Source: Vermamoeba vermiformis (Eukaryota). From it: 64,000 bases of DNA. A program made the translations under genes and the position numbers. The stretch's first letter is position 1; every line of letters starts with the position of its first letter. Under the pieces are notes generated by a model. The model saw nothing but the letters and a program-made list of their open reading frames with translations. It had not been told where the DNA came from and made no database searches. Positions 1 to 57,200 of this stretch are shown piece by piece. The stretch is taken from the NCBI GenBank assembly GCA_045837725.1, contig JBEWZL010000202.1, positions 310,001 through 374,000 of the forward strand, written 5' to 3'.

Positions 1-2420
1 CTTGACTTTGGCATCGCCACCGAGACCGACCTTGATATCAGCCTTGGGCTCGTGAACCTTGACGTCAGTGTCAGCCTTGACCTTGGCGTCGCCACCCAAG
101 CCAACCTTGACATCAGCCTTGGGCTCTTTGACTTTCACATCAGCATCGGCCTTGACCTTGGCATCACCACCGAGACCGATCTTAGCATCTCCGCTAGCCT
201 TGACATTAGTGTCACCACCAGCCTTGATCTTGGCATCACCACTGAGGCCAACCTTGACGTCAGCTTTGGGTTCTTTGATTTTCAAGTCAGCATCGGCCTT
301 GATCTTAGCATCGCCATCGGCCTTGACTTTAACATCAGCGTCAGCTTTGATCTTGACGTCGCCTTCAGCCTTGGGTTTCTTGCCACCAATCTTGGGAAGC
401 TTGAACTTCTTCTTGTCTTTGTCTCCACTCGAAGAAGACGATGAAGAGGATGAAGATGATGACGAATCATCGAGGCCGCCACCAATCTTGGGACCCTTAA
501 CTTTGATATCGCCACCAGCCTTGACTTTGGCATCGCCACCGAGCCCAACTTTAACATCAGCCTTGGGTTCGTGAACCTTGACATCAGCATCGGCCTTGAC
601 CTTGACGTCGGCGTCGGTCTTGATCTTGGCATCGCCACCAAGACCAACTTTGACGTCAGCTTTGGGCTCTTTGACTTTCACATCAGCATCGGCCTTGACC
701 TTGGCATCACCACCGAGACCAACCTTGATGTCGGCCTTGGGTTCCTTGACCTTGACGTCGGCATCAGTCTTGACCTTGATGTCAGCATCGGCCTTGACTT
801 TAACGTCAGCGTCGGCTTTGATCTTGACTTCGCCTTCAGCTTTGGGTTTCTTGCCACCAATCTTGGGAAGCTTGAACTTCTTCTTATCTTTGTCTCCACT
901 CGAAGAAGACGATGAGGACGAAGATGATGATGAGGAGTCGTCGAGACCACCAATCTTGGGACCCTTGACTTTGAGGCTGCCATCTCCCTTGATCTTGGCA
1001 TCGCCACCCAAACCAACCTTGACGTCAGCTTTGGGTTCTTTGACTTTCACATCAGCATCGGCCTTGACCTTGGCATCGCCACCGAGACCAACCCTGATGT
1101 CGGCCTTGGGTTCCTTGACCTTGATGTCGGCGTCGGCCTTGACTTTTACGTCAGCGTCAGCTTTGACCTTAGCGTCGCCACCCAAGCCAACTTTAATGTC
1201 AGCTTTAGGTTCCTTGACCTTGACGTCGGCATCGGCCTTGACCTTGGCATCACCACCCAAACCAACCTTGACGTCAGCCTTGGGTTCGTGAACCTTGACG
1301 TCAGCATCGGCCTTGACTTTGGCATCGCCGCCTAAGCCAACCTTGATGTCGCCACCGGCCTTGATCTTGGCGTCGCCACCCAAGCCAACCTTGACGTCGG
1401 CTTTGGGCTCTTTGACTTTCACATCAGCGTCAGCCTTGACCTTAGCATCGCCACCCAAGCCAACCTTGACGTCTGCTTTGGGCTCTTTGACTTTCACGTC
1501 GCCACCAAGACCAACCTTAACGTCAGCCTTGGGCTCTTTGACCTTGACGTCGGCATCGGCCTTGACCTTGGCATCGCCGCCTAAGCCAACCTTGATGTCG
1601 CCACCGGCCTTGATCTTGGCATCGCCTGAAGCTTTGGCTTTCTTGTCTTTGTCGCTTGATGAAGACGATGAGGAAGAGGATGAGGAAGATGATGAAGACG
1701 AAGAGTCCGAACGATCACGACCACCTCCAAGACCAACTTTTACTTTAGGGGCCTTTACTTTGACGTCAGCGTCAGCTTTGACCTTGGCATCACCACCGAG
1801 ACCGACCTTGACATCGGCTTTAGGCTCGTGAACCTTGACGTCAGCATCGGCCTTGACTTTGGCATCGCCACCGAGACCAACCTTGATGTCGCCGCCAGTC
1901 TTGATCTTGGCATCGCCACCAAGACCGACCTTAATGTCAGCCTTGGGCTCGTGAACCTTGACGTCAGCATCGGCCTTGACCTTGGCATCACCACCCAAAC
2001 CAACCTTACTGTCAGCCTTGGGTTCGTGAACCTTGACGTCAGCGTCGGCCTTGACTTTGGCATCGCCACCGAGACCAACTTTGACGTCGCCGCCAGTCTT
2101 GATGTTTGCATCTCCACCCAAACCAACTTTAACGTCAGCCTTGGGTTCGTGAACTTTAACTTCGGCAGTAGCGTTGACCTTAGCATCGCCACCCAAGCCA
2201 GCATGTACGTTAGCGTCTGTCTTGGCTTTAACATCGGCATTGACATTGATGTCGCCACCGGCTTTAATTTTGGCATCGCCGCCTAAGCCAACCTTGACGT
2301 CTGCTTTGGGCTCTTTGACCTTGACGTCAGCATCGGCCTTGACTTTGGCATCGCCGCCTAAGCCAACCTTGATGTCGCCACCGGCCTTGATCTTGGCATC
2401 GCCTGAAGCTTTGGCTTTTT
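1..2420. repeat. Coding tandem repeat: 75-bp (25 aa) and 48-bp (16 aa) units with higher-order duplications
   Basis: Units of the type cttgacgtcagcatcggccttgac recur throughout. The block tgccaccaatcttgggaagcttgaacttc occurs at 381 and 852; the block atcgcctgaagctttggc occurs at 1621 and 2398. Confidence 0.95.
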
Positions 2421-8529: not shown

Positions 8530-11500
8530 TTATTTCGTCATAGCATTAGTGAACCTTGCCTTCAGATCCCAATAGCTTAACTGCACTTTGTCTTCGAGAT
8601 CAGCTAGTTCAGCCACGATCGGCCTCAAGAACTCCAGGTGTGCCTTAGTCACAGCTTCATTGCCTCCGTCTTTCTTCTGTCCATATGTTCGGCCCTTTTG
8701 ATCTTCAGGCAGCTGGAAGTTTTCGTTCAGTCGTGTCACCGGATGTCCTAACAGTTTTTCAATGTCCTGTCGAGCGGATGCGATTAGTAAGTGATACTTA
8801 TAACTACCTATGATGCATGACGCATTATATATATCTTGTACTTACTTGCAAGTACTGTGATTCATCATACCACAACGCACATCCGCCTTGTTCGACGAGT
8901 TTGGTGTTGTGACAATTTTGTCCTCGGTCTTTGCATTGGTGGTACCAAACCTAAACATAATCATTAATATTATAACTCGATAATATAGCGTAATATTGTA
9001 CCTTTTCTTTCTCTTTGGCAACAATTGAGATTGCAAGACCAATCGCATCCGCTCGACCGACACGACCAATTCGGTGGATGTAATCCGCTGGCTTTGGCGG
9101 CAAAGTATAATCTAAATAGTAGGTGTTGGATATGATGCCAATGTTATAATGATTAATAGACTTACTAATTACATAAGGCAGTTCTTTGATGTCAATACCA
9201 CGTGCCGCAACATCAGTGCAAATTAAAAATCGAACTTCACCGTTCTTGAATTTGGTCAAATTTGCACGTCGCTCATTTTGGGACCTGTCGCTATGCAACA
9301 CTACGCAAGAATAAGCTCCCTCAACCATAGCTTTGGTTTTGACGCCAGGCACAGCATCAATGTTCTTAAGGTATCTTTCCACGTGATCGGCATCGAGTTT
9401 TGTTCGAACAAAAATGAGCGCTGAATCCATTTTGTGCGTGTCAATGATTTTCCGCAGTAATTCCGCTTTCAACAATTTTGTGGCTTCTGAAAGTGACGCT
9501 GGATTTGCACTTGGATTCTGCTTGTCGATATTTTCTTTTGCGTGGATACCATCTGTTTGAATTCTTTTGCCAGGTCCTTGCCACGACTTATCTGCCACTG
9601 GATCTGCTATCACGACCGCATGATCAACAGTCTGACAGTACCGATTAGACATCGTTCCTATTAATGATGAGTTACTTACCTCAGGCACTGTATCTTTGCC
9701 TTTCAAATCGATCCACTGCGGGAATTTGCAAATGATGTCAGCCATGTCTTTGATCAGTGGATCGTGCAACGTGGCAGAAAACATTAAAACCTGTAAAGGA
9801 TTGTTAGAGCGAGATTAAGGACGGGTATATTATGACTTACTTGCAATGGTTTAGATGATTTTGGTATCTTGCCGAATAATTTCTTAATCAAATTGAAGTT
9901 CTCTGTTTCGCTGATAAGGTGATCCGCCTCATCCAGCACGAAGAATCGAATATCAGATAAGTTCAGCTTTTCAGTACTAATCAATGCTATAATAATAAAA
10001 ATATTAGTTAGCTTGCTTATATACGCATTGAAATAGTGGGATCTTAAGACTGATCTGATCCGATCGGATCTGCTACGTACATTCAATTTTGCCCAATGTG
10101 CCAGTAACGATATCAACTCCTTCAGTCAATTGATCCACTTGTGCGTTGTTATTGCCACCGCCAGACAATAAACAGCATTCAACTGCTGGGCCGTACAAAT
10201 ATTTGCTGAATTGAACGAATGCAGTGTGCGTTTGCTCAGCTAATTCACGCGATGGCTCCAGCACTAGTGCTAACGGGTTGCGTCTGCAAATTTCATTAAT
10301 TACTATACTAGGCAAGTACATTAAATTATTGCAAAGTTACCCTTTAGTAGCCTTCACTGTGCTGCCTGTCGAGGTGTCAGATTGCGGTGCGGACGTTAAT
10401 CCTTGAAAGTTGGCTGGTGGAAATTTGAATGGTTTGGCGCCAAAATTGAACTCGACTTGTGCATTCTTCAAGCAAATCGCAGGGAAAAATGATCGGTTCG
10501 TTAACGAAGGCGGAATTTCATACGCGTTAGGGAACTCAGTACCTTGACAAAAAAATTAGATCCAGTCCTTAAAAGCAATGTGTTAACCGTACCATTGACC
10601 GAGAAGTGAATAGAGGCATTGTCCATATCGAGAAAACAACCAATCACATCGCCCTTGCCATAAGCTTTGCCGTAATTTTCAAACGAATTTGCATTGGCCT
10701 TCTTGCCAGTACCTCCAAATCCAAATCCCTAACAAAAAGATAAATTGAGAAAATTGCCTTATTAGGAAATAAGTCAAAAAAATAAAAAGAGAGGGGGACC
10801 AATTACGGCCTGTTGTACAATGCACGTCTGATCCGTTCGCAAGTCAAGTTCAAATTAGCGAGCCAATCTGAACTCAAACTCACGCCGCGACCCTCTAAGA
10901 ATAAATTGTTCAATCATCGATGCACAGCGCGGTGGCTGGCAGGCTTAGAGATTAAACTAAGCAGAACAGATACTACACTTCGATCGGAGCCAAGGCTCGG
11001 AGAAGGTACTTCTAAGTTGTCTGCTTAGACTTAATATAGGCCCACTTTGACCTTCGTAATTTGTCTTATGGGAACGACCAAAAAAATTGGTTTGTCGAAA
11101 AGTGTTAGAAGATGCGGATTCATTTCTCTAAGAATTCTCAGATAGCCGAAAACTTCATTGAGAGGAAGCTATAGATATTTTTATATTAAAGTCTTACCTG
11201 TTTATCTTTGCCCAAGTCGAGGTTAGCAGCTGAAGTGGCCCATCCGACTCGGCACAAGCCCTCATCTGCGACTGTAATTTCATAATAATATTTGCCCTTT
11301 TGAACACCAACACTAGCACGTCCCCCTGCCCATGCCTTCTCTAGTCTCGCTTGGCATACTAATCCTGATTCGTCGATCGCAAATGCAGCGTCTCTATCGT
11401 CAGGAGACAACTTCCAATCCGCAACTACAAAAACAAATCTGGTGTTAATTCGCCCTTAAAGCCATAATTAATTGATACTATCATACCTGAATTATTTTGT

Positions 11501-22184: not shown

Positions 22185-24303
22185 GCTCAAGCTCGGAACC
22201 GTCAGTGCAGATCCCATCTGGAAGACCAAAGCTTACCACACGTGTCTCGGGTCCAATATCACCCACAAACCGGGCCAATGCACCACAGACGGCACCTGCA
22301 AATGAAAAAGGTGTCCCTCAGATGGGGTTTAGATTACCTATGCAATTGCCGGATCGCTCAACCCTCCGTCATGTGGATGTGAGCCACAAAATCAAAACTG
22401 AAGAAAAATCACCTCCCTGGGTTCGGAATAACACGAATGCCGACGGAAATAAGCCCGAATTACACCCGCGCACCGCTTCGAACGAAACATTGCTCGTGCC
22501 AGCTGTCAAGTCGCTCCGAAACTTGCCCAAGACTCCGCCGCCCAGTCCTGTCAGTCGTCAAGTTTCTCCGCCGCCTCCACCGCCTCCGCCAGTCCGAGCA
22601 CGTGGTCACCAGGGCTCGGTGGTCAAAATTCCAGTCCCGCAGAATCCAAACGTAATGCTCGGAACACCAACATCACCACCAGTCATGGAAAGCACTGCCA
22701 CTGAGACTTATAACCCGCAATTGTCGCATCCCACCACCACCTGTCCCACGACGAATACCACAAGGCCAACCGAAGCCTGTCCACGTAATCGAGGCTCAAG
22801 CACCCTCCTCACCTGAAGTGTCACGTGCGTCGAAACACGCCAACGCGCCCGTGGACCATTCAAACGCGATTACTTCTCCGTCACCGACACAACAACCCGT
22901 CATTGTGCACCACGTGACTGTTCATTCGCCGCCCTTCTCTCACGATCCGATGATGCGACGATTGGGCTATGGACAAGAGAAACAAGAGGCACCGAAGACT
23001 GTTGCTGCACCCGGACCTGCGATAATGGAATTACCTCCAAACACTTCCCGCGTGTACCAAGTCAATTGGCGCGTGCAGCCTGATTACAACGCGAGTCAAG
23101 AACATCGGCAAGTGTCCCGTCCATTGCCTTTGCCGAGGAAAATGTCATTGGAAGATGTCAAAGTCAGTCAGCCGAGTGTGACATCACAGTCCGCTAGTGT
23201 TCGTGATCGTAGCGCTACTTTGCCGCGATTTCGAGCACCAATGAATACTCCGCAAACTATTCGTTAGTATATTCCAATACTATGCGAATTGTTAATTTTT
23301 TTCTGTGGTTAATTTCACAGAAGAAAATTATCCGTTGAGTTTTCGTTTAACTTCGATCTCCCATACTTTTGTTAATTTTCCTATATTTAACGGATGAAAT
23401 TGTACAATTTTATTTGTTTCTGATCGTACTCACGGTGTTATTTCATAGCCACTATAAATATACAGCCGAGCAATCCCATGTCAGATTACGAGAGTCGGTG
23501 GAATTTTCATCACGTGGAGGAGTTTCCCGCACCTCCAGCCTTCAGAGGCGTACAGAAAATTTATCCTAGTGGCAGTCAGGTCGGAAATTCATACCCAGCC
23601 CCGCCACTGCAACACGACGACACAGTAGCACGACACTCCACTTCACCCGTCGTACCCACAGTCACCAGCAATCCTACACTGCCCACAAGTCCTTCAACAG
23701 GTGGCCTTAAAAAGGCACCGCCTCCACGACCGCCTAAGGTACATACACTCGACAAAACAATTTTTGCAAAGAATACGACACGTGTCAAGTGTCATTTTTG
23801 ACGATCGAAAACTGACCTGTATTGTGTTATAGAAAGGAACGGGTAGCTTAACACTATCGCAAGTGCCGTCTAATGATGGCGCAGAACAGCCATTAGTCTC
23901 GCCTGTGTCACCTGGCGAGAGGAAGTCATTGCCAGCTGTGCCTGGAACTGAAAAGAAATTACCCCCGCCTTTACCAAAGAAACAACCCAATATGGTATTC
24001 CATCCTCCTAATAACCCGCCTCCTAACCCTGGCGGTCCTAAAAAGGTTCGTATAGCGATATTACATTTCCTTATTTAGTCAACTAACGTCCAGCTCTAGG
24101 TCGCGGTGCCAGTTACTGCGCCTCCGAAGAAGGTTGGAACAGCGCCAGTGCCGCCTAAGAAAATGGTGACTGGCTCACAGCCCCCGCCACCACCACCTCC
24201 TAAAAAGGGTAAGTCGTTGTGCTATTGCCGTATTAGGAAGTAACTAACTTTATGTTGATCAGCTGGTGCCCCTCCACCATTACCTCCTAAAAAAACTGTA
24301 TAA
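22185..24303 (+). CDS. Proline-rich WIP/verprolin-like actin-regulatory protein (start not resolved)
   Basis: SDYESRWNFHHVEEFPAPPAFRGVQKIYPSG matches the WIP/verprolin WASP-binding motif (xFESRFxFHxxxxxPxPxxxxxxxKxYPS). Many PPPxPxK SH3-ligand motifs; LPDRSTLRHV is a WH2-like segment. Confidence 0.7.
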
Positions 24304-25789: not shown

Positions 25790-28700
25790 ATGGAAGACTT
25801 CAGCGGATTGGATCGGGCTTATTTCGACCTTCTGCCCAACGAAATTATTGTAAATATATTCTCTTACATTATATTGGAAGATTTATGTGCCTTTTCAGCC
25901 ACGGAGAGGAGGCTAGCTAAGTTGGTAGCCGAATCCATGCAGAAATATTGGAACAATTTTATTACGCGACGATTCATGGGCACAGGTGTGTAATAACAAT
26001 TAATCAATGCATAACTATTGATTTTCGGTGCTAAATATTTAATTAATAATTCACAAATAGATTTTCAACAAATCATGCGGACAATCAATTCTGTTAGCAA
26101 GGTTAATACCAATTATAGTAAATTTGGGTACTTTATAGAAGAGATATTATCAAGTATGGATATTTCAGACCGTGGTAAGTCGGATCCACCGAGAATCATT
26201 TTTCGTATTGATTAATTTTCTTTTCTATTGAAGAAACAGCTCTGAGCAAAGTAACCGAATCAAAATTATGGAGAAATATAGAGATTGAGAGTATCGATGG
26301 CGAAGTTCTAAACAACAGAAACGGATCTGCATTGAAAGTAACAATTGGGCGAGATCTACTGGTCAACCGATTCCTTCTCAGTTGGATATTCAATAATATG
26401 GATACCAATAACATAAAAAAACTAAGCATACGATGGGAACATCTTACAGACAACGAGCTTGAATTTGTAAGTCAAACATCGGATCTGAGGCCTCAAACCA
26501 ATCCACCAAACCCAGAATTCTTAACAATAATACATACATATATATATATAGCATATTAAATCAATATAATAATAATATTTCCGTTGAGCATACAGAGTTC
26601 TTACGAACTTTTTTATTACCAGATCTTGGAACGCTGTACTCATCTGGAAGAGCTCAACATCTCCGAATCAAGCAAATTAGCTGCTTTCGTAACTGATAAA
26701 GGTGCGTGCTTACAGTTCAATCAGCGGCAAAGTAAAACTAATGTCCTGCTTAATCTAGTTATTCCGGTCTTGACAGCAAATTGTCAACAGCTCAAGAGTC
26801 TTGGAGCATTTTTTCCTATTACTGATGTCGGAATAGGTACCTTATAATGCACAATACAAAACGGATTACTAATTTGTCCGCAACAGATCTGTTGACCCGC
26901 GAGCTGACTGGTTTAGTGCAGTTGAAATTCAAAGCCTCGAAGAAAATTACCGACAGATCTTTGGCCAGTATTACAGCTAGGCAAGTACTATATTAGGGTA
27001 TACTATTAATGACTTGTAATAATATACAACGTAGATGCAAATCGTTAAAGTCATTCGAGTTCACTGGTGAATCTGAGACGATTACCTCGCAAGCATTTCA
27101 AAATCTTATTCAAGGCTTGCCTTCTTTAGAAAACTTAAAATTAGGATCGATATCGAATATCAAAAGCGAAGGTAATAGCTTGCCGTACTATCTTTTCGAC
27201 CAATCGCAATGGACTAACTTTCAGTCTTAGTGTTTTCACTTATAGCTCAATATTGCACGGGATTTCAATCATTTTCATTACTAAGCTACGAGAAGAGTGG
27301 AAAGAATAAGACATATCAAGATGATTTCTTGAAGAGACTGCAGAATATGAGGCTAAAGGTAAGTGTCTCGAGTGATATTTTTTCGATTGCAAAAACTGAC
27401 CCTACGATCTCCAATAGCGCCTATTTATACAAAGTGTTCGTTTATTGCGCGACGATCAAGCTTTTTCACCGGCATTTTGTGCACCGCTAGGTACGTTGCA
27501 GATCCAACTAGTACTTAGACTCAAGTATTAATTGGTAATAATAGAGGAGCTTAGGCTAATGAACCACGATTCTCGATGTCAAATAGTGATATCACAGCTA
27601 TTTACTATTGTCAAGAACGCACCAAACTTGACAAAGATCTACGTGTCCGAACTGACGCAGGACAACGAAGAAAAGTTTTGGGAGCCAGATCAACGAACTA
27701 TAGTTAAATTATTTGGTTTGTTAGGCCATACTCATTTAAGCAAGCTACATGAGCTCAACTTGCACTTTGGATCAACTCCGGAGTACCTCGGTAAACCATC
27801 TACTTTGCATTTCCTTTTATGGCAATTTAGCACAAGGAACTAACGGCCATTCTAACGAAGGTGTCGTGCTCAACTCGACAAGCATTACTACACTCAAGCT
27901 ATCGTCATCAAGCTTTACTATTGGCCATATACCCGCGCCAAAGTTCGACATCCACATTAACTGTCCGAACTTGACGGACTGCTCACTGTTATTGCAATGT
28001 ACTGAGCACGCATTTGCATCATTGAACGAGAACTCTAGGTAACATTGTTGAGAGAATCTTATTATTGAAGACCTCTGTAAGTTATCATTATGTGTTTAGG
28101 TCCCTGGAGAGTTTGAGCATGTCCTCGCATCAGCTGCTAAGTGACCGTATCAAACACTTGTTAAGCACGGGATTTAAGAACCTGAAGATATTTTCAGGTG
28201 ATATCGCTACACCAATAGGTAATATCGCTAATTTTCGGGTGGTGCCGTATCTGACATTCATTTCAGTCACTGAGAGTCATCCGGATGTGTTGATTCGACC
28301 ATTCAATCCTAGCTTTGAAGCGTCTTCATGGCAAGGCAATGCACTGAAAAATTATCAGCCAATCACTGGCATCAATATTTTCGTCACACCTAGTCGAGGC
28401 AAGTTCATTTTCATAGAGTTTGTCGGGACTAATATGTTCCTTGACAGATCCGTTACAAAACTATTTGTCCGTGCTGAACTTTGGTTCAATTGTTACATTG
28501 GGCTTGATGGGCGATGTGTCTAACGTGTTAACGATAACGACGCAAGATCTATATGAGCTCTCTAAGAGCATGAAGTACTTGCGCAAACTTCGGTTACGCT
28601 ACATTGACTTGCTCGAATTGAAGTTACACAGTGCGACCTTAGAGTTTTTGCGATTAGAGTACACGAGCTCGTTACAAACAATCGACTTGGATTGTCCCAA

Positions 28701-29505
28701 ATTGATCGAGTTTGTGACTGACAGAACAGGTGACGCATCATTGCCACTCCGCCTAATCAATCAACTGAAGACGAGTTCGTGCCCTCAACTCAACACGTTG
28801 CGTATTGTCGGCAAGATCAAGGAGTCAGATACGCAAGAAATTTCAAGCAAAGAGCCCAGAGGGTTCATTTGCGAGTCAGATTCAATTCACACATTAGGCA
28901 AGTTTTCTTTCATTTTGAACCGGTCTTTTTGCCACTTTTTCTGAGGCCATATTTGACATATACAGATGATATTAATATGATTTATAGGGCTCGTCAGTGA
29001 CACTAGAATCCAATCGTGTCACGTTCGAATGTCAAATCTAGTCACGCTTAACCTCCACAACATTCGGCACCTGCGCCAGATCTCAATTAACGCATGTCAT
29101 TCGCTGACTTATTTGACGATTTCTTTCTGCAAGAATTTAGAGACCTTCTCATGCGATGCACATAATCTTCGCTCCATGGGCTTTGGATTCAATGGATTTC
29201 TCTCCAGCGTCAAGATCAAGGCACCGAAATTGCAAAAGTTAAGTTTGGAGTACTGCGGTGATTATCTACTGCAATTATTACTGTCTATATTGCATAGTTG
29301 CGGTAATGTCTCCAAGCTTACTATCAAAAAAGAGTCGTTCTCGCCATTCATTAGTCCGAATGATGAGAACCCGATCTTCGAGACTTTAGGATTTATGGCA
29401 CCAAAGCTCGAAACGATTACTATATTTGGACAATGGTTTACCCCGAGGTCATTTAATAACTTGATCGAGCGCCTTGGCTTAATTCAGCTCGTTAAGGTAA
29501 ACTAA
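25790..29505 (+). CDS. F-box / leucine-rich-repeat protein, many exons
   Basis: F-box FDLLPNEIIVNIFSYI followed by LRR-like units (CTHLEELNIS, CKSLKSFEF, CPNLTDCSL, CPKLIEF, CKNLETF). Confidence 0.85.
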
Positions 29506-29729
29506 ATTTCCATTGATGCAGGATCTGATCTGGTTTCTATTTCAGTCGAAGCCGAAATTGCCAGGAGAAGCATTGAGCTACTTAAGATCGCGAAATATAA
29601 CCTATTTCGAGAAGTTGTAGGACCATAAAATGTCTTCAAATGCGAGATTTCCTTGTGGAGGAGTACCACAAGTTTTGTAGGGTTGATCTTGGTCAGAAAC
29701 ATTACTCCGAAATTAACTAATCATTTATT

Positions 29730-29843
29730 GACCGTGGTAGCTCAATAATAGAGCACTCGTCTGACCCTTCGGGGTCATCCTCCTTGCAAAATTTGTCCGG
29801 TTGGTAACGCGAGTGGATGCGGGTGTAATTCCCGCCTGCGGTC
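29730..29843 (+). ncRNA. tRNA-like RNA with non-canonical elbow and a ~41-nt structured insert in the anticodon loop
   Basis: Acceptor ACCGTGG/CTGCGGT (plus a G-1:C73 pair), TA, D arm GCTC-AATAATA-GAGC, anticodon stem CTCGT/GCGAG, variable region TGGAT, T arm GCGGG-TGTAATT-CCCGC. Followed by T-runs. Confidence 0.7.
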
Positions 29844-29844
29844 G

Positions 29845-29860
29845 TTTCTTTTTGTTTTTT
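29845..29860 (+). terminator. Pol III-type oligo-T terminator candidate
   Basis: TTTCTTTTTGTTTTTT lies immediately after the tRNA-like fold. Confidence 0.5.
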
Positions 29861-30374
29861 CGGACGTCAATTAATGAAACAGATTAATCTTTGTCTGCTT
29901 CGTTGATCTGAGGGCGGATTTGCAGAGCCCAACCGAGAAAAAGTAAATTTGAAGGTTTAGTTTCTCATATTATTGTCACTCATTGTAGCGCACAGACAAC
30001 ATTATGTCACTGACCTGAACCTCGATCTGTTGTTCTTTTGAAATTTTTTTTTCGCGTCAAATTTGACGACGTGTTTGTTGCTAGCGATCCAAGGACCGGT
30101 ACGCGATTGAAAATTACGAAAACGGAAATGTACGCAGTTGAACACGCAATGTTGAAGAACACAAACCTACTGGACTGGAAGGAAGAAAACTTCGAAAATA
30201 CGTAACGTTCATTTAAATGAGCAATTTCCAAATAAAAATAGATATTTTCTGTGCGAAAACGTGTCAACAACACTTCAAAACAAAAAAAGCAGCCGATTTT
30301 TCCATTGTTTTATTCGTGATTTCTATCAGCGTCATATAACCACAACACTCTATAGTCAAGTAGTGCAGTCAAAC

Positions 30375-30766
30375 ATGCGCTCTATCGTCTCTTTCCTCTC
30401 TGTCGTCCTTATCTTCTCCGTCATTGCGGTATGCTTATAGATCTGACCCAATTCGCTTTTATCGGATGTCAAACTAATAGTTATAATGCTATTATATAGG
30501 TAGTCGTAGCTGACAATGCATCGTGCACGTGCTACTGCCAAGTTGGCGCTGGTGGCAACAACGGAACGACATCCCAAGTCATTGAGCTTGGCGATTCAGA
30601 CACGACTAGCTGCTCTACTTGCACTAGCGATGTCTGCTCGCAGAATTATGCATCGCAATGCCAGGGCTCCATCTATGCTCAATGCGACCACACTGGATCT
30701 CCTGCCTCATCCCTCGCCGTTTCGGCTGCAGTCATGGCTTTCGTTGGCTTGCTTTATATTATGTAG
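30375..30766 (+). CDS. Small secreted cysteine-rich protein, probably GPI-anchored (2 exons)
   Basis: Signal peptide MRSIVSFLSVVLIFSVIA, intron 30429-30499, mature region with 8 Cys (CTCYC...CSTC...C...C...C) and a hydrophobic C-terminal tail SAAVMAFVGLLYIM. Confidence 0.8.
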
Positions 30767-30873
30767 GTCTTACATACCGCGGTCTATTCTAAATAAAAAA
30801 ACAAGATTTTTCTTGTGAACTACGGGCGGATCATGTCCGCGTACCAATTCTTTTTTTCTGATTTTATTTGATT

Positions 30874-36187
<5,314 letters not shown>

Positions 36188-43895: not shown

Positions 43896-45041
43896 ATGGG
43901 AGACGAAGAAGTAATGATTATGATGGACATTGGCTCCAGAAATATTAAAGCTGGATTTTGTGGCGATGATGCACCTAAGACCGTCTTTTCCAACATTATC
44001 AGCGAACCATTATCAAAGACTAGTATGCCAAATGTGGCGGGAAAAGATCGTTATGTCGGATCTGAAGCGCAAGAAAAACGTGGATTGTTAGCATTAAGAT
44101 ACCCGATCCAACGAGGCGAAGTTACAGATTGGGACGATCTCTCTGCAGTCTTACACCATGCGACATATAATGAACTGCGAGTTAGTAACCCATTTGGCTT
44201 TGTGTTTCCAGAGCCTGTTTTCAGCTCAAGAGTTTACCGAGAAAAGCTGGCCCAGATTTGCTTTGAAGAATTCGATGCACTTAATTTTTATGTCAGCCCC
44301 GTTGGTATATTGAGTATGATGGCATCTGGAAGAACATCCGGAATCGTATTGGATATTGGCGAAGGATTAACTCAAGTGTTTTCAATGATGGACGGATTCA
44401 TTCTTCGATCTGGATGTGCTCGAGTCAATAACGTGGCTGGAGCGGATCTCAACGAGTACTTGTTGAAGTTGATATCAGTATATGGCAACGAGCATAAGAT
44501 GATCAATGCTGAAAATCGCGATCTCGCACGGGAGATTAAAGAGAAAATGTGTTACGTAGCCGCGTCAAGTGATGAAGTCGCGCAACTCAACAAGCAAGCC
44601 TTGGAACAAAAAATGCACAAAAGCTATGATTTATCGGATGGGTCGTCGGTCTCACTAGTCAACGAGCAATGGCTATGTGCTGAAGCGTTATTCAATCCTA
44701 AAAAATACCTCGAAAGAGACGTGCCTGGCGTGCATCAACTGATCGTCAACGCGATTGAATCATGCGCTATTGACAACAGAAAATGGCTGTATCAAAATAT
44801 AATATTAGCTGGTGGCACAACACTCTTGCCTAACTTCTCAACACGACTTCAAAGCGAAATTGAAAAGTTAGCGCCGCATGCACCAGTCAAAGTTGTAGTT
44901 CCACCTGAACGATTTTTACTTCCGTGGATTGGCGGCTCTATTGTAGGATCAATGGGTCATAATCGGTATTTCATGACTAAGCGTAGTTACGATGAACATG
45001 GACCTTCTGCGGTACATCCGACGGTTTACGAAACAATTTAA
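43896..45041 (+). CDS. Divergent actin / actin-related protein, intronless
   Basis: DIGSRNIKAGFCGDDAP, YVGSEAQEKRG, YPIQRG, ASGRTSGIVLDIGEG, REIKEKMCYVA, NIILAGGTT and PPER...WIGGSI. Confidence 0.9.
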   Translation: MGDEEVMIMMDIGSRNIKAGFCGDDAPKTVFSNIISEPLSKTSMPNVAGKDRYVGSEAQEKRGLLALRYPIQRGEVTDWDDLSAVLHHATYNELRVSNPFGFVFPEPVFSSRVYREKLAQICFEEFDALNFYVSPVGILSMMASGRTSGIVLDIGEGLTQVFSMMDGFILRSGCARVNNVAGADLNEYLLKLISVYGNEHKMINAENRDLAREIKEKMCYVAASSDEVAQLNKQALEQKMHKSYDLSDGSSVSLVNEQWLCAEALFNPKKYLERDVPGVHQLIVNAIESCAIDNRKWLYQNIILAGGTTLLPNFSTRLQSEIEKLAPHAPVKVVVPPERFLLPWIGGSIVGSMGHNRYFMTKRSYDEHGPSAVHPTVYETI

Positions 45042-50955: not shown

Positions 50956-52432
50956 TTAATTTAGAGATCTGTCGATCACTGGACTGGTTTCTCTTCCGGA
51001 TATTCGGTCATATTGGTCGTGAGTGTTGCACCTCACAGCTAACGTCTTAATAAAGTTCACTAATTTCGTCTTTGCGTCTCCTCCCTTTGGCCGTTTGTCT
51101 TGCTCGCCTATCACCTTTAAACAAAACTTGGCCACAAATTTCTTCTTGTCGTCTGATTGCATGTTCGTAGCAATTTCCTCGATCTTTTCTTTGAATTCAT
51201 CCATATTTAGATCCATATTCCGTAGCAGTATTTGTCCACAAACAACGCCAAAGCTAAACAGATCGGTCGAGATCGAGTACTTTTTCTCTGTTACGACTTC
51301 GTGTGGCGTCCAAATGTTAGGATGAATTACTTTGTCGCTTGTATCATATGCGTATCCGTCTTCTTTATCGAGCAATTTCGCCAAACCAAAATCTCCGAGC
51401 TTCAAGATCGTTTTCGCATCTTGTTTTAGCAGTAGTATGTTTTGCGGCTTAATGTCGCAATGTAATACCAATGGTTTTTGGTTCGAGGTATCAAATAGAT
51501 ACGCAAGTGCGCTGCCTAGTTGCAAAATATAATCGTAAACTTCTGCATCTGATAGTGGACTGCTTGCATCTTTTAGTTTAGCTGCTAACGCTATAAAAAA
51601 TATGTCAAAAATCGAATATATCTTGTGCCTATCACTTACGGCAATCACATAGCTCAAGAGGCAATCCCGCGGATTTGCTTTCCGCATTTAGGTACGGCGA
51701 GCTTACAACTTTCAAAATATTGATGTGATTTAATTGAGTCAATATTCTTAATTCTTCTCTCGCATCTGCGCTGTTAGAAGTCATCTTAAGCGCCCACTTC
51801 TTCTGTCCATTTTGCTTCACAACTACAACCACGGAGCCTGAACCACGTCCAAGCACATCAGTCTCGTTAATATCATCGTAATCTTTCTGCAACAGAGTTT
51901 GTTGCTCTTCGGGCCTTTTAGCAAGCGAATCTGTCACGTTGCGCTTTTTGATGGTTGCGAAGATAATTAATCCAATTGCCAAAAAAGCTACAATTACACC
52001 GCCTAACACATAATATAGTATATTATTGTTTTCAGTAGGAGGAGCAGCTGACGGATTTCTCTTTGCTATTGGTGAAGCTGTTGGATTCGGGTTTTCTACC
52101 ACGGGGGCGTTGCATAAATCTTCTTTGCAACATAAAGGATTATTGTACGTTGGAGGAGTCAATTTTGTACAGAGAGAGGCCTGTAAAACAGTGTAGGCTG
52201 TTACGTAAGTCAAATTTTTGGGATTAATCTGCTTGCAAACGGGATCAATGTTGCCGGGCCAGCAAGGAAAGTCGTATCGTGCACAAACTTGGTCTCCTCC
52301 TGGAGGTACTTCTGCTTCCCGAACTCCAAAAGCTTGGCTGTCTCCGGTGTAACATTTCAAAGCCAAGCTGTATTGCGAAGCCAGTAGTAATAATAAATAG
52401 AATACTATCGGCACTTGCAATGCGGATTTCAT
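50956..52432 (-). CDS. Receptor-like protein kinase with LU/three-finger-like ectodomain, non-RD kinase (2 exons)
   Basis: Signal peptide; LKCY...CCKEDLCN ectodomain; TM ILYYVLGGVIVAFLAIGLIIFATI; kinase motifs GRGSGS, ALK, HCDIKPQN, DFG, WTPHE and DLFSFG. Intron 51591-51639. Confidence 0.85.
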
Positions 52433-52494: not shown

Positions 52495-54205
52495 ATGACC
52501 ACAAGCCAAAAGATTTTGTTGCTAATTATTTTGGCACTGTCAATCGCTACAGTATGCAGTCAACGTTGTAAGAATAGGATCATTGTATTAAATCCTCTAT
52601 TGGAATCCTCTATTGCAATACTCAATTAATTCTTTTTTATCAGATGCCGCAATCTATTTTAGCTCGAAACTAGACTGCAGAAACAAGGCGGATAGATTTT
52701 TAATTGAAGCAACCGATGAAAATTGCAAAAATTTTGCCTGTAAGCTTAATGGCCCTCTTCAAAATGTTTCTTCATCCGAGCAATATATCAGCTGGGCTTG
52801 CAACGCGAGCCTCGCAGATTTTGACCAAATGCTGCTAGAACAGGGATCTGGAAGAAATATTTCAATTACATGGTACTACACTACTTACACGACTTGTGGC
52901 GACGGATGGACTTACCACATTGACGCTACTGCCGTGGATTCGTGCGAAGGCATTGAAGAATTTACGTGTAAAGATAACAAATCGACAAGGAAGTGCATAT
53001 ACGTTGATCCTAATAGCCCTAAGTCAGAAATTCCGTCAAGTCAACCAGATCAGATTCAAACACCTGAATCAGCCATTATACATGATGATAACCAATTGAC
53101 TACGTTTGAAAAAATTATGATTGGAATTTCAATTGGTGGATGGGCTACAGCAGTTTTATTTATTGCGTTGTTCATTCGGGGTCGGAATAATCGCAGTCGC
53201 GGGTATGACCCGTTAGAACAAGAAGAAGAAGCAAAACATAGCCAAAACGAACATACATTGATACTGGACGATCACAATAATATGAAACAGCCAGAAAACG
53301 TTGCAGCAAATGCAAAAATATTTAGAATTTCTGAAACCGAGGTCACAATCACCGCAAAGCGACTTGGCACGGGACAATGTTCCGAAGTATTTGAAGGAGT
53401 ATGGCGCCAAAGGCCGGTCGCAGTGAAAAAACCCAAAGCTATGGACTCGGCATTACTATCTGAATTGGCAATTCATCGCGAGATAGATCAGCATCCGAAT
53501 ATTGTAGAAATATATGGCTATTTTAAAAAAGATGGCCGCATTTATCTAGTAGTGGAGTTGTGCGACAGTCAAAGTAAGAAAACCGAATCTGGATCAGCAA
53601 ATTTTAACCTAAGTTCAGACTTGGAAAGCACAATACTGCGAGGAGATCTGTCGGCAGCGGAAAAATTCAGTGTTGTCGCGGGTATCGCAGAGGGCATGGC
53701 CCATCTCCATAGGAAGTCAATAGTCCACCGAGATCTGAAGCCAAACAACATTTTACTTACGAAGAAAGGCCTATTTATGGTCCCTAAAATAGCTGACTTT
53801 GACTACTCTCGCTTCCTCGCCTCGCAAACTAGTGCTCAAAGCTTTTCAACTCCTCAAATTAGTTACGCTGCACCAGAGGCTATCACGCAAGGAGAATTCA
53901 GCTTCCAATCAGATGTTTGGTCGTACGGTGCAACAATCTTCTTTTTGCTCACAAAACAACCTCCGTTTGGTCAGCCAACTGGCTTGCAGAAAAAACGAAT
54001 GCAGAAGCAAGCTAAAATTAACTTTGAATTGCTAGAAAAGCTCCCTAAAGATCCGTTCACTCAGCTGCTAGTCGAGATTGTTATGAAGTGCTTGAAAGAC
54101 GAGCCTAACGAGAGACCGAATTTTGATCAGATCTGCTCTCAGTACAAAAAGTTCTTTAATGACTTCTTGCCATGGAATAACAATCAAAATAATAATAACT
54201 TGTAA
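52495..54205 (+). CDS. Receptor-like (TKL-type) protein kinase with Cys-rich ectodomain (2 exons)
   Basis: Signal peptide MTTSQKILLLIILALSIATVCS; Cys-rich ectodomain; TM IMIGISIGGWATAVLFIALFI; kinase motifs GTGQCSEV, VAVK, HRDLKPNN, DFD, YAAPE and SDVWSYG. Confidence 0.9.
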
Positions 54206-54270: not shown

Positions 54271-57200
54271 CTAATCTTCTATAAGCATCTGGTGCGACTC
54301 AACTACTCTCGATCTCTTGCGCTTTCGTCCGTACAGATCATCGTCGTCAGGAAAGACGCAATTATCAATCTCCACAGTTTTGTTGGCCACGTAGCCAGTC
54401 TTGAGGTCAGGGAAACATGCAGCGAGGGCTACTAACGGCACTTGACAAGCTTCAGGTGCGTCTTTAGGATAGAACGGATCTTCGCCCTTGCCTCGGAAAT
54501 AGGGATGTAAGAAGTAGATTAGCAAGAGTAGGGGGGCAGTTCTACCACGACGATCAGGCTGGACATCTTCAACTTCAGTGTTTTCAGTGTCTTTCGTCAC
54601 AATCCAATCAGGCAATGGCGTGTTCTTATCAGCAATAGCATCAATGTACTGGTGCTTGTCACGACTGGATTGTTGAGACTTGGCACCGAGAAGTTGATCG
54701 AACTCAGTATCGATGACGGGATTTCTTCTTCGTCTATGAAGACCTAGTCTATTTTGAAGGATAAAGCGGCTATTCTCGTCGTTGAACTCTTCTATTTCTT
54801 CATAAGGAGCTTCGCTACGCGTTGGAATGCCCACATTCACTTTCAGGTCCAAGTTTTGCTCTTCGCAAATGAGCTGATAGATCTTCAATTGTCGGAGCAA
54901 GTCACCAGTGTTGGGTGTGCCAATTAACTCGATGGTCTTCAAGTATTCGATGACTCTGTCAAATGGCACGTCCATCACAACATCGCCGGCACGATGGTGT
55001 TGTACTAAGGCCGAGAATTCCTTCCAAAAGTTCACTGTAGCTTCGAGCACGTCACGTGACGCGTCGTGTTCCATTGCAGGAGTCTTGAGCTCGAAGAATC
55101 GGTTGACTTTGACTTCCTCCACATTATTCTTGACTTTGTTTGTCAGCACTCCGGTCGACGGCTCTTGAAGCACAGCTGAACGATGACCAGGTCTCCAATT
55201 ATTCAGCGCCATTTGTCTGAATACGTTACGGAGTTTGTGTTCACTTTGCACAGCCTCAGTGAACACTTGAAGTTGTCGCTCTTGCATGAACACTCGCACC
55301 AAGTCGATGTATCCGTTACGCCATCCGAACCATCTATCGCACATTAGAACACGTTGCCATATTACAGGCTATGATGTATGACTTACCGTTGATGTTGAAT
55401 GGTAGTGTCAGCAACTGATTTCCTCGAAGCACGAGTGTACCATGAGACAGTCAGACCTTCAACTGTCAGGCCACGAGAAAGCATATTGCCACCAATGACG
55501 ATCAAGAAGCGAGGCACTGGCTTGCTTTTAGCTTTACGATCCCCTTCCACTGCTGAGTAGTCGAATGTGCGCATGTTTGTGATGGACTCGCCTCCGCGGC
55601 ACATGGCCGTCTTGATGTGAGTTTCAGTCAGAACTTTCTTGATCTCGTGCAATGAATCTGCCATTGGCGCATCAGGCGAAAGATCGCGCCACACTTCATT
55701 GAGATACTCTGCGTTGTTGACGGCGTTTAAGTGGTTGTTGATGTCCACTACTATGATCGACCAAGCGACAGTCACAACGGCGTGCATGAGCTCAATGAAG
55801 TCTTGATTGAGAGACGAGTGCACCATGCCACTGTGGAACAGAGGCTTTGATGGCGGTGCTTCTTCAAGGGCCTTGGAGAGCTTGTAGAACTTGCCCTTGT
55901 AGTGCAGAATGTGGACGTTCTCGTTCGTGTTGCCAGTCTCGCTCGTGACCGTGTTGAACTTGCCGTTATCAAGAGCGATGTAGAGAACAATACGGTAAGC
56001 AATGAGTTCTTCGATCTTGGCGAGAATGATGGGCTGCTTGAAGTTTGGCTTGTACAACATCTCGGCGTAGTTCGTGTTGAAGTTGTTGAACAGGTTGCGA
56101 AGCTCTTTAGGACTGAGCGAGTAATAGGACTCTTTGCTGTTGTCGAGTTTGTCTTGAAGTCCGTCACGCAAGTCATTCAATGCCTCTTCGTTCTGAGCAA
56201 AAAAACTTAACGGATCGCGAGTGCCTTCTTGTCCCGCAACGATTGCCTATAAAAAGACAAGTCAGCAACGAACTTCCGCGTTCAAATTAAGCAACTAATT
56301 TCTTACATCAAGGTCGTGAGTCTTGCGAGTTCGTTGCAATCGAATGGCTCCAGTGAACACATAGTACGCCAAAAACTTCTTCATGGACTCCGTGGCAGCC
56401 CTTTCATTGACCAACTCTTCCAAAAACTCTCGTTGGAGGCGCGTCAGGCCACTTTTTAGTTCACCAGGTTGGATGTAGTTCTTCAGATCCAAGTTCGGAT
56501 AATCTTCAAACGGGATCAACTTGATGATTCTATTCTTCAATGCTTCGTTCAAGTACATTTGTGAGCCGAGGTAAAGTCCTTTTTGCGTCGAAAGTTCCCA
56601 GAAGAAGTGAGGGAAGAACTCATCGTTGGAGTTGTTCAACACATTCGCTTGAGGAGTGGCAGAGTAACCGACGTAGTGACAGACATCGAGACCGCTCTTG
56701 GACCACAAATGACGAAGACGACGCATGCGCTCTGGGATACCTCTCTTCTCTTCTAACTGGCGCTGAGTGGCAGCAACAGAAGCGTCGTCACATTCGTCGT
56801 CGATGATGAGTGCAGGGCCTGCTAAGAACTCAGCGAGCTTTTCCTTGATCTCGTGTCTGCGTTGAAAGATCTCCGAGTTGTTCTTGCTCGCTCTGTTCCA
56901 AGGAGAGTTTTCAAAGTCGCCTTCAATGAACGAGACGAAGCTTTCAAGTGACTTGGGAACCTTCTTGAGCACGGCAAAGAGCTTGTTCGACTGCAGAAGC
57001 TCATCCACGTCAATGTTCTTGATGTTCTGCACGTCTTCGTCACCCTTCGTGAGCCAGAACATGTAATCGTTGGGCTCCATGTCACCGTTCAAGTCAATGA
57101 GAGTCTCGCCCAGGTCGGACCAAGCACTTTCAGCGTACTCTTCTTCGTTGTCAGTCTCGTAGCTTTCGTCGGTCGAGTCATCACACGTAGAAACACGCTT

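What the first reader, a model, noticed from the sequence alone, without database searches (positions are those of the whole stretch)
29730..29860. tRNA-shaped RNA with a compensatorily rewired elbow and a structured insert instead of a normal anticodon loop
Seen: all four cloverleaf stems pair and T-runs follow. The canonical tertiary contacts U8-A14, A15-U48 and U54-A58 are kept. However, the near-universal G18G19 / U55C56 is replaced on both sides at once by A18A19 / G55U56, so that A19-U56 stands in for G19-C56. An extra G-1:C73 pair is present. The anticodon loop holds 48 nt, including the hairpin TGACCC-TTCG-GGGTCA with a C(UUCG)G tetraloop. Removing 41 nt after CTG would give CT-GTA-AC (Tyr anticodon), but at a non-canonical intron position and with non-Tyr acceptor identity. 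Inference: coordinated covariation indicates selection on structure rather than pseudogene decay, so this may be an undescribed tRNA-mimic ncRNA.
Basis: partly seen in the sequence, partly recalled or inferred. Interest (0 to 1): 0.8.

Follow-up and report, generated by a model that had tools for sequence, protein, structure and literature searches.

The report
Odd-elbowed, interrupted tRNA gene family member
This is a real tRNA-shaped gene from a small multi-copy family in a eukaryote, probably an amoeba; its corner contact is rebuilt in the style of riboswitch loops, and a 41-base insert sits where the anticodon loop should be and varies between copies like an intron.

Summary
Window 29731-29843 (+) matches the Rfam tRNA model at 42.4 bits (threshold 29, E 1e-5). 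All four stems pair, T-runs follow, and the anticodon loop holds 48 nt, including a C(UUCG)G hairpin.

The window is eukaryotic: it has a U2 snRNA and GT..AG introns of 48-71 nt. DDX1 similarity suggests an amoebozoan.

New result: contigs of a DNA run pile up about 7-fold on exactly this 115-nt bin, and they carry several other flanks. So this is one of several loci, perhaps 7-10. The copies share the tRNA body. They differ by indels in the 3' part of the insert, and some have a different insert altogether. The insert therefore behaves like an intron, not like the working part of a new RNA.

The T-loop UGUAAUU equals the functional consensus (UGHAA)UU of riboswitch T-loops, which take an intercalating adenosine. 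This supports a selected, rebuilt elbow.

Unresolved:
- Removal at the canonical 37/38 site gives CUGACCC (C37, anticodon GAC).
- Only a non-canonical cut gives a normal tyrosine loop.
- There is no bulge-helix-bulge motif.
- No spliced RNA was seen, and no relatives could be fetched.

Best reading: an intron-bearing tRNA-derived gene. Rivals: an unspliced tRNA mimic, or a pseudogene family.

The parts
29730..29730 (+). G-1, can pair with C73 (29843); included in the unit shared with other genomic copies
   Evidence: Sequence. Loose ends of other-flank contigs and reads lie before 29728/29730 (table 7). ARAGORN draws an 8-bp acceptor stem.
29731..29737 (+). acceptor stem, 5' strand (A1-G7), pairs with 29836-29842
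   Evidence: Rfam alignment; sequence.
29740..29754 (+). D arm: stem GCTC/GAGC, 7-nt loop AATAATA (A14 A15 U16 A18 A19 U20 A21; no G18G19)
29756..29760 (+). anticodon stem, 5' strand CTCGT
29761..29808 (+). 48-nt 'anticodon loop': 7 loop positions plus a 41-nt insert whose exact borders are undetermined
   Evidence: (44 positions inserted against the model).
29762..29777 (+). hairpin TGACCC-TTCG-GGGTCA, which sequesters positions 33-37
   Evidence: -9.9 kcal/mol alone. Pair probability 0.99-1.0 for five of its six pairs and 0.63 for the outermost. No variant of the copies is listed inside it; the listed variants start at 29779.
29779..29804 (+). weak irregular second hairpin; the part of the insert that varies between copies
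   Evidence: Variants +AA behind 29779, C>A at 29783, +G behind 29784, -1 at 29788 and +C behind 29791 (tables 3-4).
29809..29813 (+). anticodon stem, 3' strand GCGAG; similarity of the more diverged copies begins here
   Evidence: Loose ends before 29809 and 29810 (table 7).
29814..29818 (+). variable loop TGGAT (U48 opposite A15)
29819..29835 (+). T arm: stem GCGGG/CCCGC, loop TGTAATT (U54 G55 U56 A57 A58 U59 U60), riboswitch-type T-loop
   Evidence: Consensus (UGHAA)UU in passages read.
29836..29843 (+). acceptor stem 3' strand CTGCGGT plus C73
29845..29860 (+). T3-C-T5-G-T6 runs, RNA polymerase III terminator-like; other copies match up to 29853 or 29860
   Evidence: Sequence. Loose ends behind 29853 and 29860. 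That T-runs terminate Pol III is established knowledge.

Best explanation
This is one locus of a small nuclear family of tRNA-derived, polymerase-III-type genes, with at least about four loci shown by other flanks and perhaps 7-10 by depth. The organism is a eukaryote that is probably an amoebozoan.

The tRNA body is what is maintained: acceptor, D, anticodon-stem and T arms. Its elbow has been rebuilt from the universal G18G19/U55C56 type into the riboswitch type. That means a UGUAAUU T-loop, with A18 as the intercalating base and an A19-U56 pair.

The roughly 41 nt in the anticodon loop are an intervening sequence under little constraint beyond its first hairpin.

Inferred, not shown:
- The transcript is made by Pol III and ends in the T-runs.
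- It is trimmed by RNase P and RNase Z.
- The insert is cut out by the tRNA splicing endonuclease and the halves are joined by an RtcB-type ligase, leaving a 73-74-nt tRNA.
- Its decoding identity is open. A cut at 33/34 or 34/35 gives a normal tyrosine loop, CUGUAAC. The canonical 37/38 cut gives CUGACCC, with anticodon GAC and a pyrimidine at position 37.
For: 1. It is a real tRNA fold: Rfam 42.4 bits against a threshold of 29, E 1.2e-5. Every stem is intact, with only G.U wobbles.

2. It is a gene family.
- In DNA run X2 the summed contig depth in the bin 29730-29844 is 3717.6. The 29 other bins have a mean of 520, and the neighbouring bins are 415.5 and 467.4.
- Contigs with other flanks stop matching at 29728/29730 (3 contigs) and at 29853/29860 (3 contigs). 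These are the borders of the transcription unit.

3. The body is better kept than the insert.
- Depth is 2292 at 29779 and 1292 at 29783-29791, against a bin mean of 3717.6. By my arithmetic this puts the two flanking body parts near 4900.
- All six variant rows listed inside the unit (five places, 29779-29791; C>A at 29783 is in both variants) lie in the insert and none in the 74 body positions.
- Two contigs match only from 29809/29810 on and carry a different but alignable insert end.

4. After in-silico excision leaving a loop with a purine at 37 (5'-side shares k=2-5), ARAGORN accepts the 74-nt product at its default threshold.

5. The T-loop equals the riboswitch functional consensus (UGHAA)UU, and adenosine is the almost exclusive intercalator there.

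6. An alternative fold pairs positions 32-37 with 29799-29804 and leaves UAAC as a 3' bulge. This is the general shape of eukaryotic pre-tRNAs. It costs only 4.2 kcal/mol more than the hairpin fold (-12.0 against -16.2).

7. The window encodes DDX1. From recall, DDX1 is a subunit of the RtcB tRNA-ligase complex.

8. RNA reads of a diverged lineage cover the unit (mean depth 1.6 and 1.4) while both neighbouring bins are at about 0.
Against: - No spliced read or joint over the insert was seen. The libraries are ordinary cDNA RNA-Seq with only a few reads here.
- 3 reads in X21 carry the unspliced 5' part together with a median of 85 nt of another upstream flank. That fits read-through or DNA carry-over rather than a Pol III start.
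- In the minimum-energy fold, both the canonical and the Tyr-type 5' cut sites lie inside a hairpin with pair probability about 1.0.
- No bulge-helix-bulge motif fits either pair of sites (read by hand).
- Canonical excision gives C37 and anticodon GAC. From recalled rules, eukaryotes do not use this.
- Eukaryotic introns outside 37/38 are reported only from nucleomorphs and Cyanidioschyzon (passages of PMC4090602).
- A1-U72 and C73 fit no eukaryotic Tyr identity rule (recalled).
- The B-box region lacks T55 and C56, and the A-box lacks GG. From recall, these matter for TFIIIC.
- The two diverged copies read GAAAT and GCAAT where this copy reads GTAAC. The Tyr anticodon is therefore not kept in all copies.
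- The tool warns that summed contig depth is not a copy number, and 115 variant rows were not shown.
Confidence: 0.4

Rival explanations
1. It is an unspliced tRNA-mimic non-coding RNA. The roughly 115-nt RNA keeps its insert, folds into an L-shape with a three-way junction in place of the anticodon loop, and acts by being recognised as a tRNA (by processing enzymes, exportin, or a tRNA-binding protein or nuclease) without decoding.
For: - No excision gives both a canonical site and a normal loop.
- The cut sites are buried in a very stable C(UUCG)G hairpin.
- No listed variant lies inside the hairpin, and more contig depth reaches 29779, just behind it, than covers 29783-29791: 2292 against 1292.
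- The elbow is rebuilt to a type used by non-tRNA structured RNAs.
- The acceptor end is unusual, G-1:C73, and G-1 lies inside the shared unit.
- Only unspliced reads were seen.
Against: - The rest of the insert varies by indels, and in some copies it is replaced. It is therefore not a conserved functional module.
- Its second hairpin is broken by those variants.
- No Rfam family other than tRNA matches the unit. The weak gyrA and rpsB hits, at 17 bits and E 0.2-0.5, lie wholly or mostly downstream of it.
- The unspliced reads come with 85 nt of upstream flank and may be read-through or DNA.
Confidence: 0.22
2. It is a family of inactive tRNA pseudogenes, or retro-copied Pol III transcripts of a former intron-containing tRNA gene. 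The copies have no present function and look similar because they are young.
For: - The shared unit runs from about the expected start to the T-run, as copies of a primary transcript would.
- The internal promoter boxes deviate at positions that are critical in yeast (recalled).
- The loop, discriminator and first base pair fit no isotype.
- Diverged copies exist.
- The review read says that eukaryotic tRNA genes with odd insertions are mostly taken to be pseudogenes.
- ARAGORN at default settings rejects the gene.
Against: - None of 21 stem pairs is broken.
- The four elbow changes jointly reproduce a known working T-loop/receptor combination.
- All six listed variant rows fall in the 41-nt insert and none in the 74 body positions. 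If placement were random over 115 nt, this has a chance of about 0.002 (my arithmetic, with the caveat that some rows were not shown).
- Terminator runs are retained in several copies.
- The copy number is far below that of SINE-like families.
Confidence: 0.28
3. It is a 3'-end processing signal of the upstream protein-coding transcript, in the manner of mascRNA. RNase P would cut at the tRNA-like fold to form the mRNA end.
For: - The unit lies 110 nt downstream of the stop codon (29618-29620) of the leucine-rich-repeat gene, on the same strand.
- In another copy, RNA reads join the unit to an A-rich upstream tract (table 7).
Against: - RNA depth is about 0 in the bin between the gene and the unit (29615-29729).
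- Other copies have unrelated flanks that are not A-rich.
- The unit has its own T-run terminator.
- A full cloverleaf with an insert is not needed for such a signal.
Confidence: 0.05

Closest known systems
Eukaryotic nuclear intron-containing tRNA genes, especially tRNA-Tyr(GUA)
   Same: Multi-copy family, with exons kept and the intervening sequence variable between copies. The insert lies in the anticodon loop and pairs with the anticodon region. Insert length (41 nt) is inside the reported 6-133 nt range (PMC4090602). T-run terminator. A Tyr loop CUGUAAC can be produced.
   Different: The normal loop needs a cut at 33/34 or 34/35, not 37/38. The canonical cut gives C37. A1-U72 and C73 replace the recalled C1-G72 and A73. 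There is no G18G19 or U55C56.
Non-canonical tRNA introns of Cyanidioschyzon merolae and of cryptophyte/chlorarachniophyte nucleomorphs (PMC3728597, search listing and abstract only; PMC4090602, passages)
   Same: Eukaryotic tRNA genes interrupted at places other than 37/38, including elsewhere in the anticodon stem-loop.
   Different: Those introns rely on bulge-helix-bulge motifs (C. merolae) or are very short (nucleomorphs). No such motif fits here, and the organism is not an alga by the DDX1 similarity.
T-loop / T-loop-receptor modules of FMN and cobalamin riboswitches (bioRxiv 10.1101/2022.12.26.521914, passages)
   Same: The 7-nt loop UGUAAUU fits (YGNRA)NY and the best-performing (UGHAA)UU. 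The partner loop offers adenosines for intercalation and for pairing with loop position 3.
   Different: Here the module sits at the elbow of a tRNA cloverleaf, where tRNAs use UUCRA with G18G19.
Archaeal (DPANN) tRNAs with an A18/G55 swap, and crAss-like phage tRNA genes with a hairpin insert and an A19-U56 pair
   Same: The same kind of compensated elbow change. In the phage case there is also a hairpin insert in the anticodon loop.
   Different: Those are archaeal or viral, have inserts at 37/38, and the archaeal ones have recognisable splicing motifs. This one is eukaryotic and nuclear, and it changes both 18/55 and 19/56.
tRNA-like Pol III or processed RNAs (vault RNA, mascRNA)
   Same: About 60-140 nt, tRNA-derived promoter or fold, paired ends, T-run or RNase P processing (recalled).
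   Different: The Rfam search of 29600-30000 at E up to 1 listed only tRNA on the unit; two weak chance hits lie wholly or mostly downstream. A complete four-arm cloverleaf is kept here.

Membership tests
tRNA (Rfam RF00005) | Cloverleaf sequence/structure profile at or above the gathering score | tested here: met
   42.4 bits against 29, model positions 1-71 of 71, not truncated.
tRNA (functional, decoding) | 7-nt anticodon loop with U33 and a purine at 37 | tested here: inconclusive
   The gene has a 48-nt loop. Excision with 5'-side shares k=2-5 gives such loops. The canonical k=6 gives CUGACCC with C37. Which cut happens, if any, is unknown.
tRNA (functional, decoding) | G18G19 in the D-loop contacting U55C56 in the T-loop | tested here: not met
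   A18A19 and G55U56. They are replaced by a combination matching riboswitch T-loops.
Eukaryotic canonical tRNA intron | [quoted passage not shown] | tested here: not met
   The 37/38 cut gives an abnormal loop. The 5' site is paired with probability about 1.0 in the MFE ensemble. C32 could pair with G29804, which is position -4 rather than -3, in a fold 4.2 kcal/mol above the MFE.
Archaeal-type / Cyanidioschyzon-type intron | Bulge-helix-bulge motif (3-nt bulge, 4-bp helix, 3-nt bulge) at the splice sites | tested here: not met
   Checked by hand on the sequence for the 37/38 and 33/34-34/35 site pairs. Only a relaxed form exists, a 4-bp helix 32-35 with 29801-29804, a 4-nt 3' bulge and no 5' bulge.
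Eukaryotic tRNA-Tyr(GUA) | Anticodon GUA; C1-G72 and A73 identity (recalled rule); intron present | tested here: inconclusive
   GUA arises only with a non-canonical cut. A1-U72 and C73 were observed. An insert is present. Two diverged copies read GAAAT and GCAAT at the same place.
tRNA-His-like G-1:C73 architecture | Encoded G-1 opposite C73 plus anticodon GUG | tested here: not met
   G-1:C73 is present, but no excision gives GUG.
tRNA-derived SINE | Hundreds or more dispersed copies; tRNA-unrelated body and A-rich or LINE-like tail | tested here: not met
   About 7-fold depth only. The unit ends in the T-run directly after the acceptor stem. There is no second copy in the 64-kb window.
Pol III type-2 (tRNA) gene | Internal A and B boxes and a downstream T-run | tested here: inconclusive
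   T-runs are present. Against the recalled consensus, the A-box region lacks GG and the B-box region lacks T55, C56 and G57. Transcription was not measurable with the data at hand.
Metazoan/mammalian mitochondrial-type tRNA (nuclear copy of mtDNA) | Detected by mitochondrial tRNA models | tested here: not met
   ARAGORN -mt and -mtmam find nothing. The unit is multi-copy and has Pol III-type T-runs.

The most novel reading that the evidence does not exclude
A eukaryote outside the algae maintains, in several nuclear copies, a working tRNA with two unusual features. Its universal elbow (G18G19/U55C56) has been replaced by a riboswitch-type T-loop and adenosine receptor. Its intron also has to be removed at a non-canonical site (33/34 or 34/35) without a bulge-helix-bulge motif to give tRNA-Tyr(GUA). 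That would mean a splicing endonuclease specificity, and a tolerance of TFIIIC, RNase P, RNase Z, the CCA-adding enzyme and the ribosome, that have not been described for nuclear tRNAs.
Probability: 0.15. Interest if true: 0.8.

Novelty: new variant of a known kind. Interest (0 to 1): 0.5.

Why it matters
G18G19 and U55C56 are among the most conserved nucleotides in biology. In eukaryotes they also form part of the internal polymerase III promoter.

A nuclear gene family that keeps a perfect cloverleaf while swapping both elbow contacts for the combination used by riboswitch T-loops would show two things. The tRNA elbow would be one solution among interchangeable ones, even in a eukaryote. The enzymes that read the elbow (TFIIIC, RNase P, RNase Z, the CCA-adding enzyme, modification enzymes) would either tolerate the change or be bypassed.

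If the insert is spliced, its position would widen the known substrate range of eukaryotic tRNA splicing. If it is not spliced, the family is a tRNA mimic with an unknown partner. If the copies are dead, the finding is only a curiosity of one genome.

Tried and rejected
- Own genome: none is held, so the family members could not be read directly.
- Metagenome scan with a 22-nt T-arm word: 1 hit (L001). It lies inside a GC-rich coding-like stretch and the locus has no Rfam match, so it is chance.
- Viral contig scans with both arms and a gap: 0 and 0 hits. With the D-arm 20-mer: 0 hits.
- Viral contig scan with the 18-nt T-arm word: 7 loci. All are plain hairpins or coding sequence. ARAGORN finds no tRNA at any of the 7 matches, and the only tRNA gene in the 7 loci (L005) lies about 9.5 kb from its match.
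- Prokaryote genome contigs: 0 and 0 hits.
- Earlier notes of this scan: none for this genome or for look-alike sequence.
- Full-text search for the two arm motifs as DNA and as RNA: 0 papers.
- Literature searches on amoebozoan tRNA introns gave nothing specific. I read passages of the giant-virus tRNA paper PMC11946776 and they were not relevant. PMC7912444 had no passage on A18, G55 or U56.
- Protein-database search with the 52-aa reverse-frame ORF over the unit, hoping for spurious ORFs on paralogous contigs: no candidate.
- Second T-arm-like match at 22453-22469 (-), 2 mismatches: it lies in a GC-rich coding-like region with no tRNA signal, so it is chance.
- Weak Rfam hits to gyrA RNA and rpsB sRNA just downstream (17 bits, E 0.18-0.46): chance.
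- ARAGORN at default thresholds, with introns, and in the two mitochondrial modes: nothing.
- Protein-atlas look-up of the actin-like gene for taxonomy: uninformative.
- Sequencing-run index: no RNA holder listed.
- Small shares held by runs of other organism labels were laid for one run only (X4). It carries spliced transcripts of the two neighbouring genes and nothing on the unit.
- The mascRNA-like reading and the SINE reading were considered and given low weight, as set out under rivals and the membership test.

Full report
**What is there.**
Window 29731-29843 (+) is a complete tRNA cloverleaf. Rfam's tRNA model matches end to end at 42.4 bits (gathering score 29, E 1.2e-5 for the 64-kb window). 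It is the only tRNA hit in the window; the only other family found is a U2 snRNA at 10789-11007 (-).

Read from the sequence:
- Acceptor stem: 7 bp, with an optional eighth pair G29730:C29843.
- D arm: stem GCTC/GAGC, loop AATAATA.
- Anticodon stem: CTCGT/GCGAG, enclosing 48 nt (29761-29808).
- Variable loop: 5 nt, TGGAT.
- T arm: stem GCGGG/CCCGC, loop TGTAATT.
- T3, T5 and T6 runs directly follow.

The 115-mer folds at -45.1 kcal/mol, z -3.42; 1 of 200 shuffles folds as well. With the cloverleaf enforced, the hairpin TGACCC-TTCG-GGGTCA (29762-29777, -9.9 kcal/mol on its own) forms with pair probabilities of 0.99-1.0 for five of its six pairs and 0.63 for the outermost. A weak irregular second hairpin covers 29779-29804. 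UAAC (29805-29808) stays single-stranded.

**Detectors.**
ARAGORN finds nothing at default settings, with or without introns, or in its mitochondrial modes. At -ps80 it calls tRNA-Tyr(GTA) with a 41-nt intron at 34/35. At -ps85 with introns it makes 55 calls in this window, so that call has no weight alone.

After in-silico excision the 74-nt product passes ARAGORN's default threshold when 2-5 loop letters are kept from the 5' side:
- k=2 or 3: loop CTGTAAC, Tyr.
- k=4: loop CTGAAAC, Phe.
- k=5: loop CTGACAC, Val.
- k=6, the canonical 37/38 position: loop CTGACCC, rejected at default.

**Setting.**
The window is eukaryotic nuclear DNA. It has a U2 snRNA. GT..AG introns of 48-71 nt are seen as joints in transcript contigs and reads.

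A DDX1 exon has as best named relatives Physarum (55 %) and Balamuthia (51 %), with unnamed relatives at 78 % and 61 %. The organism is thus probably an amoebozoan; this rests on one gene. No whole genome is held.

The unit lies 110 nt downstream of the stop codon (29618-29620) of a leucine-rich-repeat gene on the same strand. The last intron of that gene (29495-29543) is confirmed by 8 RNA reads, 4 in each run.

**It is a gene family.**
I laid contigs of a DNA run of the same organism label (X2) on 27545-30994 in 115-nt bins.
- Summed depth is 3717.6 in the bin 29730-29844.
- The 29 other bins have a mean of 520, and the two neighbouring bins are 415.5 and 467.4.
- The tool warns that summed depth is not a copy number.
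- However, the same call lists contigs whose match to the window stops at the borders of the unit and runs on into other sequence. Before 29728 there is 1 contig, before 29730 there are 2, behind 29853 there are 2, and behind 29860 there is 1. Several other loci therefore exist.
- 3 further loose-end rows and 56 contig pieces were not shown.
- No second copy lies in the window itself.
- Roughly 7-fold depth is the size of an ordinary tRNA gene family, not of a SINE.

**Body against insert.**
- Inside the unit, depth is 2292 at 29779 and 1292 at 29783-29791. Given the bin mean, the two body parts must average near 4900 (my arithmetic).
- The listed differences within the unit are +AA behind 29779, C>A at 29783, +G behind 29784, one base missing at 29788, and +C behind 29791. 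They belong to two variant forms, with depths of 455 and 530.
- All lie in the second half of the insert and hit pairs of the predicted second hairpin. None is listed in the 74 body positions, although 115 rows were not shown.
- Two further contigs match only from 29809/29810, the first bases of the 3' strand of the anticodon stem. Before that point their letters align only loosely with the window's insert end. The last five letters are GTAAC here, GCAAT in one contig and GAAAT in the other.
- So the body is kept, the first hairpin is kept in part of the copies, and the rest of the insert drifts or is replaced. This is the pattern of intron-containing tRNA gene families. It argues against the insert being the functional module of a new RNA.

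**The elbow.**
G18G19 is replaced by AA, and U55C56 by GU. The resulting 7-nt loop UGUAAUU fits the consensus (YGNRA)NY and the best-performing form (UGHAA)UU, reported for FMN/cobalamin riboswitch T-loops. The same passages state that adenosine is used almost exclusively as the base that intercalates between loop positions 4 and 5 (bioRxiv 10.1101/2022.12.26.521914, passages only).

In tRNA numbering, A18 would be that intercalator and A19-U56 the Watson-Crick contact. Four changes that together reproduce a known working module, with no broken stem pair, point to selection on the L-shape at least in the family's ancestor.

Earlier unchecked notes of this scan report A18/G55 swaps in DPANN archaeal tRNAs. 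They also report a hairpin insert with an A19-U56 pair in crAss-like phage tRNA genes. I did not verify those.

**Can the insert be spliced?**
According to passages of PMC4090602:
- Eukaryotic tRNA introns sit at 37/38 and are 6-133 nt long.
- They are found by a ruler mechanism, with splice sites mostly single-stranded.
- Other positions are known only from nucleomorphs and Cyanidioschyzon.
- Odd insertions elsewhere are usually taken as pseudogenes.

Here:
- The 37/38 cut gives anticodon GAC with C37. From recalled rules this is not a eukaryotic decoding tRNA.
- The only normal eukaryote-like loop (Tyr) needs a cut at 33/34 or 34/35.
- Both 5' sites are inside the stable hairpin in the minimum-energy fold.
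- No bulge-helix-bulge motif fits either pair of sites.
- A fold that pairs 32-37 with 29799-29804 and leaves a 4-nt 3' bulge resembles ordinary pre-tRNA architecture. It is only 4.2 kcal/mol less stable, but its position-32 pair is one place off the canonical -3.
- The diverged copies keep G..AAY before the 3' stem strand but vary the letter that would be position 35 in the Tyr reading.

The identity of any mature product is therefore open.

**Expression.**
Two raw-read RNA runs with the same species label were laid.
- Most of their reads are only 88-95 % like the window, with differences at third codon positions. They come from a diverged lineage.
- They give a mean depth of 1.6 and 1.4 on the unit and about 0 in both neighbouring bins. 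No joint across the insert was seen.
- 3 reads in X21 carry the unit's first roughly 66 nt joined to a median of 85 nt of an A-rich other flank.
- This shows that the unit is conserved in that lineage and present, unspliced, in the libraries. It cannot tell Pol III transcripts from read-through or DNA carry-over, and such libraries rarely capture mature tRNA.

**Verdict.**
The best reading, at about 0.4, is that this is a member of a maintained family of intron-bearing tRNA-derived genes with a rebuilt elbow. Splicing and decoding identity are unproven. The rivals:
- An unspliced tRNA mimic, about 0.2.
- A young family of dead copies, about 0.3.
- A 3'-end processing signal, about 0.05.

No homologue could be fetched from the metagenome, viral or prokaryote collections, and no paper holds the arm motifs. 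Covariation across species therefore could not be tested.

Noticed in passing
window 10789-11007 (-): U2 spliceosomal RNA gene, Rfam 57.3 bits (gathering score 46). It shows the window is eukaryotic nuclear DNA.
   Followed up: partly
window 8951-9814 (-): An exon of DDX1 helicase. The best named relatives are Physarum (55 %) and Balamuthia (51 %). From recall, DDX1 is a subunit of the RtcB tRNA-ligase complex, which is relevant to how tRNA halves would be joined here.
   Followed up: partly
window 54271-57236 (-) and 58498-61436 (-): Two tandem paralogous gene sets, each of several long reading frames. One carries a Pfam Z1 domain (PF10593, 65 bits), which is mostly known from bacteria. This may be a horizontally acquired or mobile gene that was then duplicated.
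   Followed up: no
window 50956-52432 (-) and 52592-54205 (+): Two neighbouring genes, read divergently, for membrane-spanning protein kinases. One has a signal peptide and a cysteine-rich ectodomain ending in CCKEDLCN, which resembles the Ly6/uPAR or receptor-kinase ectodomain pattern (recalled).
   Followed up: no
window 43896-45038 (+): Single-exon, divergent actin-family gene (Pfam Actin, 272 bits). The nearest database relatives are only 70-71 % identical and unnamed.
   Followed up: partly
window 27545-30994: The DNA run holds two versions of the flanks, for example two 362-nt contigs with 0 and 23 differences. The RNA runs filed under the same species label are mostly only 88-95 % alike, differing at third codon positions. 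There are thus two haplotypes or strains, and a diverged lineage under one name.
   Followed up: no
window 27946-28776, 29115-29382 and 30342-30775: A run filed under another organism label (X4) holds spliced transcripts, 95-99 % alike, of the two genes flanking the tRNA-like unit, with introns of 48-71 nt. The window's organism is therefore present in samples labelled as something else.
   Followed up: no
window 575-1291 (+), within the GC-rich first 2 kb: A long low-complexity reading frame of repeated TLTSASAL-like units in a stretch of 53 % GC, against about 40 % elsewhere.
   Followed up: no
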